Origin: Burkholderiales bacterium
GTDB lineage: Bacteria > Pseudomonadota > Gammaproteobacteria > Burkholderiales > WYBJ01
NCBI GenBank assembly: GCA_022841915.1
Contig: JALHQN010000016.1
Coordinates: 17,859 to 81,858 of the forward strand
DNA: 64,000 bases
Reading direction: 5' to 3'
Of the stretch, positions 23,378 through 48,717 are shown one piece after another; the first letter of the stretch is position 1, and each line of letters begins with the position of its first letter. The notes under the pieces were generated by a model. The model was not told the DNA's origin. It did not search any database and was given only the letters and a program-made list of their open reading frames with translations. The position numbers and the translations under genes are program-made.

Positions 23378-24355
23378 ATGACACACATCGTCCGCAGCGT
23401 CGGGATTTTCGCCACGTGCGCGTTTTTGACGACGCCCACCGGGGCGGCCGAACAGCCCGCCTATCCGAACAAGCCGATCCGCCTCATCGTGCCCTTCCCG
23501 CCCGGGGGCAGCATCGATCCGATCGCCCGCATGATGGCGACGAAACTCAGCGAGCGTCTGGGTCAGCAGATCCTCGTCGATAACCGCCCCGGCGCCAACG
23601 GGGCCATCGGCACCGAGTTGCTCGCCCGGGCCGCTCCCGACGGCTACACGCTGATCCACCTCGGCCCCGGCACGCATGTCATCAATGCGCACCTTGCCAA
23701 GAATCTGCCCTACGACAGCATTAAGGATTTCGCCCCGGTCGCCGCCGTGCAGCGCAGCGACTACGTCCTCGTCGTGCATCCGTCCCTGCCGGTCAGCAGC
23801 GTGAAGGAGATGGCCGCTTTGGCCAGGGCCCGGCCCGGACAGATCGCGTATGGATCCTCGGGCAACGGCAACATGAACCACCTGGCCGCCGAACTGATGA
23901 ACATCACGCTCGGCATCAAGACCCACCACATCCCCTACAAGGGCGCAGCCGTGGTGTTGACCGATCTGATCAGCGGCCAGATCCAGATGCATTTTTCGGT
24001 GGCGATCTCCGCCCTGCCGCTGATCCAGGCGGGCCGCCTGAAGCCGCTCGCCTTCGGCGGCGAGACGCGCCTGGCGCAGCTGCCGCAGGTGCAAACCTTC
24101 GCCGAAGCTGGCCTGGGCGCCATCACCCTGCGTCCCTGGCAGGGAATGCTCGCACCGGCCAAGACGCCTCGTCCGATCATCGACCGGCTCAATGGCGAGA
24201 TCGCGCAGATCCTCAGACTGCCGGATATCGTCGAGTCGTTGAGCGCTCGCGCGATGACACCGCTCATCACCACGCCGGAGCAGTTCGCGGCACTGATGGC
24301 CTCCGACTACAAGAACGTCGCCGCCATCATCAAGGCAGCCAACCTCAAACTCTAA
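23378..24355 (+). CDS. Bug-family (TctC-like) tripartite tricarboxylate transporter substrate-binding protein
   Basis: A signal peptide is followed by the AYPNKPIRLIVPFPPGGSIDPIAR hallmark. The protein is about 325 aa. Confidence 0.9.
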   Translation: MTHIVRSVGIFATCAFLTTPTGAAEQPAYPNKPIRLIVPFPPGGSIDPIARMMATKLSERLGQQILVDNRPGANGAIGTELLARAAPDGYTLIHLGPGTHVINAHLAKNLPYDSIKDFAPVAAVQRSDYVLVVHPSLPVSSVKEMAALARARPGQIAYGSSGNGNMNHLAAELMNITLGIKTHHIPYKGAAVVLTDLISGQIQMHFSVAISALPLIQAGRLKPLAFGGETRLAQLPQVQTFAEAGLGAITLRPWQGMLAPAKTPRPIIDRLNGEIAQILRLPDIVESLSARAMTPLITTPEQFAALMASDYKNVAAIIKAANLKL

Positions 24356-39296: not shown

Positions 39297-39369
39297 TGGA
39301 GGCGGGGGATGGATTTGAACCACCCTACGTGGCTTTGCAGGCCACGGCATAACACTCTGCCACCCCGCC
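39297..39369 (-). tRNA. tRNA-Cys (anticodon GCA)
   Basis: The minus strand reads GGCGGGGTGGCAGAGTGTTATGCCGTGGCCTGCAAAGCCACGTAGGGTGGTTCAAATCCATCCCCCGCCTCCA. It has a 7-bp acceptor stem GGCGGGG/CCCCGCC and an anticodon stem GTGGC/GCCAC with loop CTGCAAA. The T-loop TTCAAAT, discriminator U and encoded CCA are present. Length is 73 nt. Confidence 0.9.
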
Positions 39370-39395: not shown

Positions 39396-39983
39396 TCAGG
39401 CCGTCTCCAGACAACGCAGCATCACCTTCGCGACATCCTCCAGGCCCTTGCGGTCGGGATTCGCTTTCCCGACCAGCCGCAAGCCTTGTATCCCTGCCGT
39501 GATGAACCGGGCCAGCGCATCGATGTCGGCTGACCGCGGAAGTTCGCCCTGCGCTTGCGCGCTCATCAAGGCGTCGCGAAACGTAGCCTCTATCCGTTCG
39601 AGGCTGCGACGCACCCGGGCAGCCGCAGCGCGATCGCCGCGAACCAGCTCAGCGGCACAGTTGCCCAGAAAACAACCCCGCCGGCCCGGCCCCGCTGCAA
39701 TCTCGTCGACGATGCGCTGAACGAAACGGGCAATCCCCTCCTTCACGGTCTTTGCGGTCGATATCGATGCCGCAATTCGTCGCACCGCCGCCTCTTCGTA
39801 ACGCTCGAGCGCACGGACATAGATCGACTGCTTGTCGCCGAATGCCCCGTACAAACTCGATCTTCCCAGCCCGGTCGCCTCGCACAAATCGTCGAGCGAC
39901 GTCGCCTCGTAGCCTTTGGCCCAGAACACCTGCATCGCCTGCTCGAGGGCCTCGTCGATGTCGAACTCTCTAGGGCGCGCCAT
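39396..39983 (-). CDS. TetR/AcrR-family transcriptional regulator
   Basis: The N-terminal HTH reads FWAKGYEATSLDDLCEATGLGRSSLYGAFGDK. ATG at 39983. It is co-directional with, and 133 nt downstream of, the peroxiredoxin-like gene. Confidence 0.9.
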   Translation of the reverse strand: MARPREFDIDEALEQAMQVFWAKGYEATSLDDLCEATGLGRSSLYGAFGDKQSIYVRALERYEEAAVRRIAASISTAKTVKEGIARFVQRIVDEIAAGPGRRGCFLGNCAAELVRGDRAAAARVRRSLERIEATFRDALMSAQAQGELPRSADIDALARFITAGIQGLRLVGKANPDRKGLEDVAKVMLRCLETA

Positions 39984-40116
39984 GCTCCACCAAGTCTTCA
40001 CACTGTGCAACTGCAGCCTGCGTCGAGCTCATTGGAAAAGACTGCTCAGCGCATCGGGCGATCTGCAACCGTCGTGCTCGCAAGCAAGGACGATGACCGA
40101 TCCCAGTTCCCCTGGT

Positions 40117-40593
40117 CTACTTGGCGAGCTGCCGCTCGCGAAACTGGATCATCTTGACCACATCCGCGGCATCCATCCGCCCGATCGGACCGTCGCTATA
40201 GCTCGATGCGAGCACCTTGCCGTCGCCACCGAGAACGAACTCGGCCGGTTGAACGATGCCGCGACGATCCTCCCACCAGGCGCCGATACGGTCTGCGATG
40301 TCGCGCGTGACGCCGTAACCGACGGGAAACGAAACCTCCGCGGCCACCTCGCGAGCCTTGTCCTCGGCATCAACGCTTGCCGCAAGGACTCGGACGTCCA
40401 GCGCATCCAAGGCTTGCTTGAGCTTCTCGAAGCCGACCAACTGTCGGCGGCAATACGCTCACCAGTGCCCGCGATAGAACAGAACGACACCATATTTGCC
40501 GCCGAGCTGCGACGGCACCCGAATACGCTGACCATCGACAATATCGATTTCCAGAGCCGGAAACGCTTCCCCGATACCGAGCTTGTCCGCCAT
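40117..40593 (-). CDS. Peroxiredoxin-like (AhpC/TSA/redoxin fold) protein with an in-frame UGA at the peroxidatic position; candidate selenoprotein (U-A-Y-C), alternatively a pseudogene
   Basis: ATG 40593 lies 6 nt after a GAGGAGG SD. The translation is MADKLGIGEAFPALEIDIVDGQRIRVPSQLGGKYGVVLFYRGHW-[TGA 40461-40459]-AYCRRQLVGFEKLK... and continues in frame to TAG at 40117. Cys homologues of this fold carry FYRGxWCPxC at the same place. Confidence 0.6.
40432..40448 (-). promoter_or_regulatory. Candidate bacterial SECIS hairpin for the peroxiredoxin-like gene
   Basis: The minus strand reads GCCGAC-AGUUG-GUCGGC, a perfect 6-bp stem that starts 11 nt after the UGA. The apical loop contains GU. 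Confidence 0.45.
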
Positions 40594-40617
40594 CTCGTCC
40601 TCCTCGCATTTGGTTCT

Positions 40618-40648
40618 GGACTATACAGTCCGTAATTCGAGGATGCAA
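40618..40648 (-). promoter_or_regulatory. Sigma-70 promoter of the peroxiredoxin-like/TetR unit with an operator-like inverted repeat over the -10
   Basis: The minus strand shows TTGCAT (40648-40643), a 17-nt spacer and TATAGT (40625-40620). The inverted repeat GGACT-GTAT-AGTCC (40631-40618) overlaps the -10 box. Confidence 0.5.
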
Positions 40649-40661
40649 CCGACAGGGACAG

Positions 40662-47718: not shown

Positions 47719-48717
47719 TCATTGAGCCGGGATGTTCGCCTCCTTCACCACCTTGGCCCAACGCTTGACCTCGGCTGCGATCTCGCGCCGGAACTCGTCG
47801 GGTGAATTCGCGATGACCTCCAGCCCCATGGCGAGCAACCGGTCACGGTCGGTGTCCGCCTTCAGGATGCGTCGAATCTCGGTGGCGTACTTGTCGACGA
47901 GCGGCCGAGATATACCCTTGGGGGCCAGGATGCCTTGCCAGTCGAGCACGACGATGTTCGGCACGCCCGCCTCGCCCAAGGTCGGCACGTCGGGGAGCAG
48001 CGGCGAGCGCTGAGCGGACGAGACCGCAAGCGGTCTCAAGCGACCCGACTTGATCAACGGCAGCGACGATGTCGCGGAGGCGAAGCTCATCGAGACGTTG
48101 CCGCCGGCCAAATCGATCATCGCCGGCCCCCCGCCCTTGTAGGGGATGTGGGTCATTTTGACCCCCGTGGTGAGCGCAAAGAACTCGCCGATCAGGTGGG
48201 GCGCTCCCCCAATGCCCGAGTGAGCAAAGGTGAGCTTGCCCGGTGCCTGCTTAGCCTGCGCGATGACATCCTTGACCGTCTGAATAGTCGACTTCACGGG
48301 CACGACCAGCACGTTGCCTACCGACGCCGTCATGGTGACCGGCTCGAAGTCGTTGAGCGTGTCGTAGGGAAGCTTCATCAAGCTCGGGTTCACTGAAAAG
48401 CGCATGCCGGCCAGCATGACCGTATGGCCGTCCGGTGCGGCACGGGCGAGGATCTGCGTTCCGATGACCCCGCCCGCCCCCGGGCGATTGTCGACCAGCA
48501 CTTGCTGACCCCACGCCTCGGTGAGTCTTTGGGCAAGCACCCGGGCCATGCCGTCGCTGCTGCCTCCCGGCGCCACCGGGACGATCAGCCTGACGGGCCG
48601 ATTGGGAAAGGCGGCCCCAGCATCCGTCTGACTCCAGCTCAGCGAACTCGCGCTCGCAAGGAGCAGGGCCGTGACGGTATAGGATCCGGCGCGGAGTACA
48701 TTCTTTTTCGACTTCAT
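47719..48717 (-). CDS. Bug-family (TctC-like) substrate-binding protein
   Basis: A signal peptide is followed by FPNRPVRLIVPVAPGGSSDGMAR. Confidence 0.9.
   Translation of the reverse strand: MKSKKNVLRAGSYTVTALLLASASSLSWSQTDAGAAFPNRPVRLIVPVAPGGSSDGMARVLAQRLTEAWGQQVLVDNRPGAGGVIGTQILARAAPDGHTVMLAGMRFSVNPSLMKLPYDTLNDFEPVTMTASVGNVLVVPVKSTIQTVKDVIAQAKQAPGKLTFAHSGIGGAPHLIGEFFALTTGVKMTHIPYKGGGPAMIDLAGGNVSMSFASATSSLPLIKSGRLRPLAVSSAQRSPLLPDVPTLGEAGVPNIVVLDWQGILAPKGISRPLVDKYATEIRRILKADTDRDRLLAMGLEVIANSPDEFRREIAAEVKRWAKVVKEANIPAQ

What the first reader, a model, noticed from the sequence alone, without database searches (positions are those of the whole stretch)
40117..40593. Peroxiredoxin-like gene with UGA replacing the peroxidatic Cys (HW-U-AY-C) plus a SECIS-like hairpin 11 nt downstream
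A strong SD and ATG at 40593 open a frame that reads ...GGKYGVVLFYRGHW, then TGA (40461-40459), then AYCRRQLVGFEKLK..., and runs in frame to 40117. The combined 158-residue product is a complete AhpC/TSA/redoxin-fold protein. The UGA sits exactly where Cys homologues carry the first Cys of WCPxC. Eleven nt after the UGA is a perfect hairpin GCCGAC-AGUUG-GUCGGC with GU in the loop. The gene also has a near-consensus promoter (TTGCAT-17-TATAGT), which argues against a decaying pseudogene. The ORF track shows only the 107-aa C-terminal piece (40117-40440).
Basis: partly seen in the sequence, partly recalled or inferred. Interest (0 to 1): 0.8.

Follow-up and report, generated by a model that had tools for sequence, protein, structure and literature searches.

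The report
Known Prx-like selenoprotein gene with SECIS
This is a real selenocysteine-encoding gene that ORF finders split in two at its UGA, but it belongs to a "Prx-like UxxC" selenoprotein family catalogued since 2005-2008, so it is a correct call and not a new kind of thing.

Summary
A minus-strand frame runs 40593->40117 with one in-frame TGA (40461-40459), reading FYRGHW-U-AYC, and a 17-nt hairpin begins at the 11th nt after it. The joined 158-aa product is an AhpC/TSA-fold protein.

Comparative evidence is decisive:
- All 80 orthologous genome loci I fetched carry TGA at this codon, while nearby synonymous sites vary freely.
- The hairpin is kept by compensatory changes, and synonymous sites are frozen only over it.
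- More distant Cys-form homologues have lost the hairpin.
- In 26 of 80 loci a tRNA-Sec gene lies within 3 kb or less. In L016 the order is selA-selB-selC, then this gene, then a second UxxC (DsbA-like) selenoprotein gene.

- Sec does not replace the peroxidatic Cys. It aligns with the Thr of the Prx TxxC motif, which is the first Cys of a thioredoxin-type CxxC. Cys48 sits at the peroxidatic position.
- The promoter is not near-consensus (8 of 12).

[quoted passage not shown] The GOS 2008 supplement holds reads with FYRGHWUPYCRRQL.

Sec machinery is not in this window, so expression as a selenoprotein in this genome is inferred, not shown.

The parts
40117..40593 (-). Complete coding sequence of a 158-aa Prx-like (AhpC/TSA-fold) selenoprotein. 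Codon 45 is UGA = Sec and the stop is TAG at 40119-40117.
   Evidence: frame; Pfam AhpC-TSA 1.3e-19 over residues 7-128; tblastn matches residues 1-158 in 80 genomes; intact in closest relatives, synonymous changes exceed nonsynonymous.
40459..40461 (-). In-frame UGA read as selenocysteine (residue 45 of the U-A-Y-C redox motif).
   Evidence: TGA in 80 of 80 orthologous genome loci plus L084/85 and L087-L092. Cys (TGC/TGT) in Cys-form homologues at the aligned codon.
40450..40452 (-). Codon for Cys48, the partner of Sec in UxxC. It aligns with the peroxidatic Cys of true peroxiredoxins.
   Evidence: alignments (6q5v, 2ywn, Prx2, 3hdc). Invariant Cys in 81 of 81 sequences.
40432..40448 (-). Bacterial SECIS minihelix: 6-bp stem GCCGAC/GUCGGC with loop AGUUG, 17 nt in all, starting at the 11th nt after UGA.
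   Evidence: RNAalifold predicts it independently. 98.1% of cells paired, compensatory changes at 2 pairs, slid controls 4-54%. Synonymous sites frozen only here. Broken in distant Cys forms.
40599..40604 (-). Shine-Dalgarno AGGAGG, 5 nt before the ATG.
   Evidence: Read directly from the sequence. Conserved GAGGAG in relatives L089 and L092.
40620..40648 (-). Possible promoter TTGCAT-17 nt-TATAGT in the 68-nt gap after the TerC gene. Weak evidence.
   Evidence: Only 8 of 12 consensus matches, below the scanner threshold. Both hexamers are conserved in L089 (identical) and L092 (TTGCAT-17-TATCGT).

Best explanation
The gene encodes a cytoplasmic, roughly 158-residue redox protein. It has a peroxiredoxin (BCP/AhpC-type) scaffold whose active site is a thioredoxin-style U45-x-x-C48 pair.

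During translation the UGA at 40461-40459 is not read as stop. The 17-nt hairpin that begins at the 11th nt downstream, with an invariant G-U in its loop, acts as a bacterial SECIS. It recruits SelB.GTP.Sec-tRNA(Sec) to the ribosome, and selenocysteine is inserted. This step is inferred from conservation and from selA-selB-selC linkage in orthologous loci.

In the protein, Sec sits at the N-terminal cap of helix alpha2 as the attacking nucleophile. It reacts with a disulfide or a hydroperoxide, forms a selenenylsulfide with Cys48, and is recycled by a thiol reductant such as thioredoxin. This step is inferred from motif and fold only. The substrate is unknown.

The gene is an orthologue of the published 'Prx-like 1 / Prx-like thiol:disulfide oxidoreductase' selenoprotein family.
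For: Sequence and fold:
- Frame, TGA and hairpin are present.
- AhpC-TSA domain spans the TGA.
- AlphaFold model of the nearest Cys form has pLDDT 90.8, with the active-site residue just before helix 49-60. Best structural matches are peroxiredoxins, TM 0.76-0.83.
- Residue 45 aligns with the first Cys of WCPYC in 3hdc and with Thr of TxxC in Prx.

Conservation of the UGA:
- TGA in 80 of 80 orthologues from Alpha- and Betaproteobacterial MAGs, with free synonymous variation nearby.
- 110 of the top 120 protein hits are Sec-type calls, either truncated after the stop or read as Trp.

Hairpin:
- 98.1% of cells paired, with five standard pair types at pair 24-32 (GU/GC/AU/UA/UG) and CG/GC/UG at pair 21-35. 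0 of 500 shuffles reach the covariation score.
- A further C-G to U-A compensatory change in L084.
- Arg49 is CGC in 78 of 81, Gln51 is CAG in 81 of 81, Leu52 is only UUG/UUA, and Val53 and Gly54 third positions are frozen. The same amino acids elsewhere in the gene vary freely.
- Distant Cys forms lose the hairpin, with 3-4 of 6 pairs.

Sec machinery in orthologous loci:
- tRNA-Sec within 3 kb or less in 26 of 80 loci.
- L016 has selA-selB-selC directly upstream and a DsbA-like UxxC gene downstream.

Window lineage and literature:
- The closest relatives keep TGA, the hairpin and the frame, with synonymous exceeding nonsynonymous changes.
- GOS 'Prx-like 1' reads are 48-60% identical, E = 3e-49 and 2e-54.
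- Geometry matches the E. coli minimal SECIS rule: a 17-nt stem-loop about 11 nt from UGA with G/U in the loop (PMC8659212).
Against: - No selA, selB, selC or selD in the 64-kb window, so Sec decoding in this particular genome is not demonstrated.
- The hairpin alone is not energetically exceptional (z = -0.77).
- No Rfam model recognises it.
- The spacer is 10 nt rather than the 11 nt of E. coli, and there is no bulged U.
- Two Cys-form homologues nested among the Sec forms keep a perfect hairpin (L081, L082). Part of the conservation could therefore be coding constraint or recent conversion.
- No experimental evidence of Sec insertion exists for this family. The 2026 review lists it as 'predicted with high confidence'.
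- The catalytic chemistry and substrate are inferred only.
Confidence: 0.88

Rival explanations
1. Relic or pseudogene in this lineage. The family is a true selenoprotein elsewhere, but the window's organism has lost Sec decoding and the UGA now terminates translation.
For: No Sec machinery and no other convincing selenoprotein gene in the window. The gene is detached from the selABC block seen in other genomes and has a lineage-specific Pro46Ala change in the motif.
Against: Four independent contigs of the window's lineage (92-100% identical) keep TGA, the identical hairpin, an intact frame, SD and upstream hexamers. Synonymous changes exceed nonsynonymous ones (16:6, 10:3, 21:8). A 64-kb window covers only about 1-2% of a genome, so absence of sel genes here means little.
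Confidence: 0.06
2. UGA is decoded by something other than Sec, for example Trp or Cys through an alternative code or near-cognate read-through.
For: Many gene callers translated orthologues with Trp at this codon (28 'HWW' proteins). An ordinary tRNA-Cys gene lies about 750 nt downstream.
Against: The 'W' calls are TGA in the DNA and do not translate under table 11. TGA ends many high-GC3 genes in the window, including PNPase and TerC, so it is a normal stop here. The tRNA-Cys has anticodon GCA and cannot read UGA. tRNA-Sec, selA and selB flank the orthologues. A conserved structured element right after the UGA is the Sec signature.
Confidence: 0.03
3. The stop is genuine and two separate products are made: a 44-aa peptide and a 107-aa protein starting at TTG 40440. 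The hairpin would be only conserved coding sequence.
For: This is how gene callers annotate it. Near Cys forms keep the same hairpin sequence.
Against: The AhpC/TSA fold and its active-site motif span the stop. Full-length Cys homologues exist as single proteins. Synonymous sites are frozen only over the hairpin and covary, which coding constraint does not explain. Distant Cys forms with the same peptide lose the pairing.
Confidence: 0.03

Closest known systems
Prx-like 1 / 'Prx-like thiol:disulfide oxidoreductase' selenoprotein family (pfam00578, UxxC). Sources: Zhang et al. 2005 Sargasso Sea (PMC1088965); Zhang & Gladyshev 2008 GOS (PMC2398784); reviews PMC9312934 and PMC13188914.
   Same: [quoted passage not shown] The GOS supplement lists reads with FYRGHWUPYCRRQL...IQPSEF...SSYS.GP.GR that are 48-60% identical to the window protein.
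   Different: The window lineage has U-A-Y-C rather than U-P-[YFH]-C. The published family is broad and also includes TlpA-like secreted forms, so this is one subfamily of it. The linkage to selA-selB-selC and the spread in soil and groundwater Alpha- and Betaproteobacterial MAGs were not found in the papers I could search.
Canonical peroxiredoxins (BCP/PrxQ, AhpC/Prx1, Prx6) and the Sec-containing Prx (PrxU, TxxU).
   Same: Same fold (TM 0.76-0.83). Cys48 occupies the peroxidatic-Cys position.
   Different: The Pro and Thr of the PxxxTxxC signature are replaced by Arg41 and Sec45. Sec is three residues upstream of the peroxidatic position, not at it. The Arg aligned in Prx2 corresponds to the invariant Pro116 here. 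NCBIfam PrxU scores 23 against a cut-off of 270.
Thioredoxin-fold CxxC oxidoreductases (TlpA/ResA-type; 3hdc 'thioredoxin family protein' WCPYC).
   Same: The W-[C/U]-P-Y-C motif aligns residue for residue. The expected chemistry is a nucleophilic N-terminal residue plus a resolving Cys.
   Different: Overall structure ranks closer to Prx than to TlpA/ResA. There is no signal peptide or membrane anchor (sequence).
E. coli fdhF-type bacterial SECIS (minimal 17-nt upper stem-loop 11 nt after UGA; G23/U24 in the loop; bulged U17).
   Same: A 17-nt stem-loop inside the coding sequence immediately after UGA, with invariant G-U in the apical loop and similar spacing.
   Different: The spacer is 10 nt rather than 11. 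The stem is a perfect 6 bp with no bulged U. The loop is 5 nt (AGUUG/A). No Rfam family matches it.

Membership tests
Prx-like (UxxC) selenoprotein, pfam00578 | AhpC/TSA (pfam00578) domain | tested here: met
   Pfam PF00578 E = 1.3e-19, 70.8 bits against a cut-off of 26, residues 7-128.
Prx-like (UxxC) selenoprotein, pfam00578 | In-frame UGA within a thioredoxin-like UxxC motif (not TxxU) | tested here: met
   HW-U-AY-C. U45 aligns with the first Cys of WCPYC and with Thr of the Prx TxxC.
Prx-like (UxxC) selenoprotein, pfam00578 | UGA conserved in orthologues, and Cys in homologues at the same column | tested here: met
   TGA in 80 of 80 loci. TGC/TGT in L081, L082, L083, L093 and L094.
Prx-like (UxxC) selenoprotein, pfam00578 | Sequence similarity to catalogued members | tested here: met
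   GOS '#Prx-like 1' reads JCVI_READ_286511 (60% identity, 2e-54) and JCVI_READ_1161201 (48%, 3e-49).
Prx-like (UxxC) selenoprotein, pfam00578 | SECIS stem-loop immediately downstream of UGA | tested here: met
   Conserved and covarying 6-bp hairpin with G-U in the loop.
Prx-like (UxxC) selenoprotein, pfam00578 | Sec-insertion machinery (selA, selB, selC, selD) in the same genome | tested here: inconclusive
   Not in the 64-kb window. Present next to the orthologue in 26 of 80 other genomes. The rest of the source genome is not available.
Prx-like (UxxC) selenoprotein, pfam00578 | Selenium actually incorporated into the protein | not testable with these tools
   Needs 75Se labelling or mass spectrometry. 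The family is listed only as 'predicted with high confidence'.
Canonical peroxiredoxin | PxxxT/SxxC active-site signature, with Sec or Cys at the peroxidatic position | tested here: not met
   Arg41 and Sec45 replace the Pro and Thr. Cys48, not Sec, is at the peroxidatic position.
Canonical peroxiredoxin | Prx fold | tested here: met
   Foldseek top hits are Bcp4, Prx6 and AhpC, E = 5e-12 to 1e-10, TM 0.76-0.83, using the model of Cys homologue P0001.
PrxU (NF040737) / SelL-related redox protein (NF040769) | Score above the NCBIfam curated cut-off | tested here: not met
   23.0 against 270, and 25.6 against 120.
E. coli-type bacterial SECIS | 17-nt upper stem-loop about 11 nt after UGA, with G and U in the apical loop | tested here: met
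   17 nt, 10-nt spacer, loop A-G-U-U-G/A with G27/U28 invariant in 81 sequences. Rule as summarised in PMC8659212.
E. coli-type bacterial SECIS | Bulged U in the 5' arm of the upper stem | tested here: not met
   The stem is perfect. Only a U.U mismatch at pair 24-32 in 11 of 81 sequences.

The most novel reading that the evidence does not exclude
In many uncultivated Alpha- and Betaproteobacteria this gene sits directly behind selA-selB-selC and in front of a second UxxC (DsbA-like) selenoprotein gene. That arrangement forms a compact 'Sec island', which could be the unit that spreads Sec decoding among aerobic proteobacteria together with redox selenoproteins rather than formate dehydrogenase. 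The earlier view was that FdhA is the only selenoprotein linked to selABC in these classes (PMC1794560, PMC5029168). In the window's lineage the gene has left the island, lies beside tRNA-Cys and has changed UPYC to UAYC.
Probability: 0.3. Interest if true: 0.45.

Novelty: already known. Interest (0 to 1): 0.27.

Why it matters
- For annotation: the gene is mis-called as two ORFs (44 aa and 107 aa) here and in dozens of public assemblies, or is translated with Trp under table 4. Recognising the UGA as Sec restores a complete redox enzyme.
- For biology: the finding adds little that is new. The family and its UxxC motif have been catalogued since 2005-2008.
- Modest extra value comes from three points. 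The family is far more widespread in soil and groundwater Alpha- and Betaproteobacterial MAGs (312 species hits) than the 28 organisms counted in 2016. The family gives a clean, minimal 17-nt SECIS with natural covariation. Its frequent position right after selA-selB-selC suggests it is a core 'reason' for keeping Sec decoding in these lineages.
- The function and substrate of the family remain untested experimentally.

Tried and rejected
- Single-sequence folding statistics: not informative (z = -0.77).
- Rfam at gathering threshold on the whole window, and in permissive mode on the 121-nt region: no SECIS family, only a chance miRNA hit at E = 4.6.
- Promoter scan: no site passes.
- Sec machinery in the window: ARAGORN and Rfam find only tRNA-Cys. 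Pfam on 20 neighbouring or size-matched ORFs finds none of SelA, SelB or SelD. tblastn with SelA and SelB taken from L016 gives nothing better than E about 1.
- Crude scan for other in-frame-TGA genes with redox motifs in the window: 15 candidates, all looking like out-of-frame Arg/Ser/Pro-rich artefacts. The GC3 filter also missed the target gene itself, so this scan is weak.
- Neighbour clustering across the 80 loci: the two largest 'neighbour' clusters were alternative-frame ORFs overlapping the gene itself and were discarded.
- I considered that the adjacent tRNA-Cys might be an unusual Sec-like tRNA. It is an ordinary 73-nt tRNA-Cys with GCA anticodon and U73.
- I considered TlpA/ResA-type membership. 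The fold search ranks peroxiredoxins first.
- One Pfam call failed on wrong coordinates.
- I did not determine the taxon of the window beyond 'proteobacterial, 65% GC'.

Full report
**1. What is in the sequence**

On the minus strand an ATG at 40593 is preceded by AGGAGG (40604-40599, 5-nt spacer). It opens a frame reading MADKLG...VVLFYRGHW, then TGA (40461-40459), then AYCRRQLVGFEKLK..., ending at TAG 40119-40117. The mechanical ORF list shows only a 44-aa piece and a 107-aa TTG-started piece. With Cys placed at the stop, the 158-aa product matches Pfam AhpC-TSA (E = 1.3e-19) and Redoxin across residues 7-138, so the domain spans the stop. No NCBIfam model reaches its cut-off: PrxU scores 23 against 270, and the SelL-related model 25.6 against 120.

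The hairpin GCCGAC-AGUUG-GUCGGC lies at 40448-40432. It starts at the 11th nt after UGA (a 10-nt spacer) and has dG -9.4 kcal/mol. On its own, the 71-nt region folds no better than shuffled sequence (z = -0.77).

The claimed promoter TTGCAT-17-TATAGT is real sequence but matches only 8 of 12 consensus positions. The scanner reports no sigma-70-like site.

**2. Is the UGA conserved?**

A search of 5.8 billion proteins returned 1421 relatives. Of the best 120:

| Type of hit | Number | Notes |
|---|---|---|
| ~107-aa calls starting just after the stop | 82 | 70-97% identical to the C-terminal piece |
| Full length with Trp at residue 45 | 28 | TGA in the DNA for the one checked (P0011, on contigs L084 and L085) |
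| Full length with Cys | 7 | |
| Full length with Arg | 1 | codon CGA, one step from TGA |

DNA for one of the 'Trp' proteins (P0011, on two contigs, L084 and L085) shows TGA, and the call does not translate under table 11. The 'Arg' form is CGA.

A scan of one genome per GTDB species found 312 genomes encoding a relative. I held the best 80 as DNA. They are Beta- and Alphaproteobacterial MAGs: Burkholderiales, Rhodospirillales, Hyphomicrobiaceae, Defluviicoccus and others. All 80 have TGA at codon 45. Neighbouring invariant amino acids use their synonymous codons freely: Arg41 third-position entropy is 1.60 bits and Gly42 is 1.76. Codons before the TGA show the pattern expected under purifying selection.

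**3. Is the hairpin a functional RNA element?**

- In an ungapped 81-sequence alignment, RNAalifold independently predicts exactly this 6-bp stem.
- 98.1% of cells are paired.
- Pair 24-32 occurs as GU 30, GC 22, AU 12, UA 4, UG 2 and UU 11 (81 rows). These changes alter the encoded residue (Val, Ala, Asp or Gly) in step with the synonymous third base of Arg50.
- Pair 21-35 switches CG to GC in two genomes (AGG CGG ... GCC GCC) and to UA in L084.
- No shuffle out of 500 reaches the covariation score, and slid registers give 4-54% pairing.
- Synonymous sites are frozen only over the element. Arg49 is CGC in 78 of 81. Gln51 is CAG in 81 of 81. Leu52 is UUG or UUA in 81 of 81, although Leu38 in the same genes uses CUN in 74 of 81. 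Val53 third-position entropy is 0.10 against 1.43 for Val36. Gly54 is 0.38 against 1.76 for Gly42.
- Control with Cys forms: three more distant Cys-form homologues that still encode [R/Q]RQL have only 4, 4 and 3 of 6 pairs, and two of them use CUA or CUC for Leu. Two Cys forms that nest among the Sec forms (L081 TGC, L082 TGT) keep a perfect hairpin. I read these as recent Sec-to-Cys conversions. They are also the main caveat.
- The geometry fits the E. coli rule as summarised in PMC8659212, citing Liu et al. 1998: a 17-nt upper stem-loop 11 nt from UGA with G23/U24 in the loop. Here the spacer is 10 nt and there is no bulged U.
- Rfam has no matching model.

**4. Sec machinery**

The window contains one tRNA, an ordinary tRNA-Cys(GCA) at 39297-39369. 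It has no selA, selB or selD among 20 ORFs scanned with Pfam. tblastn with SelA and SelB taken from a related locus also finds nothing.

In the orthologous loci, however, ARAGORN finds tRNA-Sec(UCA) within 3 kb or less in 26 of 80. It is often about 40 nt upstream of the gene. In L016 the order is:

- selA (PF03841, 2e-136);
- selB (GTP_EFTU plus SelB beta-barrel and winged-helix domains);
- selC;
- this gene;
- a DsbA-like gene that itself reads LEVFSDYV-TGA-PWCYLS, a second UxxC selenoprotein.

This is strong indirect evidence that the family's UGA is decoded as Sec.

For the window's own lineage, four contigs that are 92-100% identical keep TGA, the identical hairpin, the SD, the upstream hexamers and an intact frame. 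Synonymous changes exceed nonsynonymous ones (16:6, 10:3, 21:8). They share the same synteny: cation-efflux, TerC, this gene, TetR, tRNA-Cys, enoyl-CoA hydratase. TGA is an ordinary stop for other genes in the window.

**5. Which catalytic residue is Sec?**

phmmer alignments to solved peroxiredoxins (6q5v DFTPVC, 2ywn AFTQVC, human Prx2 DFTFVC) put residue 45 on the conserved Thr and Cys48 on the peroxidatic Cys. The alignment to the thioredoxin-family protein 3hdc (WCPYC) puts residue 45 on the first Cys of CxxC. The Pro of PxxxTxxC corresponds to Arg41, and the Prx2 Arg127 column corresponds to the invariant Pro116.

An AlphaFold model of the nearest Cys homologue (pLDDT 90.8) places the motif at the start of helix 49-60. 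Its best PDB matches are peroxiredoxins: Bcp4, Prx6 and AhpC, with TM 0.76-0.83.

So the protein has a Prx scaffold with a thioredoxin-type UxxC redox pair. 'First Cys of WCPxC' is correct.

**6. Mechanism**

- Shown: conserved UGA, conserved and covarying hairpin, and linkage to selABC.
- Inferred: SelB-dependent Sec insertion directed by the hairpin.
- Inferred: Sec45 acts as the nucleophile and forms a selenenylsulfide with Cys48, which is then reduced by a thioredoxin-like partner.
- Not determined: whether the substrate is a disulfide or a hydroperoxide.

**7. Comparison with what is known**

- The GOS paper lists 'Prx-like 1, pfam00578, UxxC, 225 selenoproteins' (PMC2398784).
- Its supplementary sequence file under '#Prx-like 1' contains reads such as ...YNVVLFYRGHWUPYCRRQLVAFEE...IQPSEF...SSYSSGPLGR. 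The string HWUPYC occurs 41 times.
- Two such reads are 60% and 48% identical to the window protein (E = 2e-54 and 3e-49).
- The 2016 census found it in 28 organisms.

The gene is therefore an orthologue of an already catalogued selenoprotein family. I found no paper in the searchable library that reports the selABC linkage of this family. That is absence of evidence only.

**8. Verdict**

Two details need correcting: the catalytic position and the promoter strength. Sec machinery for this genome remains unverified. Novelty is low, so interest is 0.27.

Noticed in passing
L016:1-4100 (also L025, L031, L055, L047, L024, L007 and others): In 26 of 80 orthologous loci a tRNA-Sec gene lies within 3 kb or less of the Prx-like gene. 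In L016 the order is selA, selB, selC, the Prx-like (U) gene, then a DsbA-like gene, forming a compact Sec island. Earlier surveys reported FdhA as the selenoprotein linked to selABC in Alpha- and Betaproteobacteria.
   Followed up: partly
L016:3488-4096 (+): The 187-aa DsbA-like neighbour, conserved in 12 loci, has its own in-frame TGA. It reads MTQEPLVLEVFSDYV*PWCYLS, i.e. a DsbA-like UxxC selenoprotein gene that is also split by ORF callers.
   Followed up: partly
window 39297-39369 (-); also L087, L089, L092: In the window's sub-lineage the gene is followed by an ordinary tRNA-Cys(GCA, U73, CCA encoded) rather than tRNA-Sec. In L092 (81% identical protein) the tRNA is only about 250 nt after the gene, with no TetR gene between. 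This could be coincidence or a tRNA-linked insertion site. I did not resolve it.
   Followed up: partly
window 40456-40458 (-), codon 46: The window lineage (also L089-L091) has Ala at the first x of UxxC (U-A-Y-C). All 80 other orthologues have Pro (U-P-Y/F/H-C).
   Followed up: partly
L086:1181-1183: One metagenomic relative has CGA (Arg) in place of TGA with the hairpin intact, and odd N- and C-terminal extensions (226 aa). It may be a sequencing error, an inactivated copy, or a recent mutation.
   Followed up: no
protein hits P0003, P0005, P0008-P0037; L084/L085: 28 of the top 120 database proteins show Trp at residue 45. The one checked (P0011) is TGA in the DNA on both contigs that carry it (L084, L085), so its caller used a UGA=Trp table; the other 27 were not checked. 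Public protein sets therefore hold mistranslated versions of this selenoprotein.
   Followed up: partly
window 40620-40650 (-): The upstream hexamers TTGCAT-17-TATAGT are conserved in relatives down to 81% protein identity (L092: TTGCAT-17-TATCGT). A short inverted repeat GGACT-GTAT-AGTCC overlaps the -10 hexamer. With a TetR-family gene immediately downstream (39396-40010), this could be an operator.
   Followed up: no
window 23378-24355 (+) and 47719-48717 (-): There are at least two TctC/Bug-family tripartite tricarboxylate receptor genes, plus several ABC and NMT1-type binding proteins. This fits a Burkholderiales-like or related proteobacterial chromosome. The taxon was not determined.
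   Followed up: no
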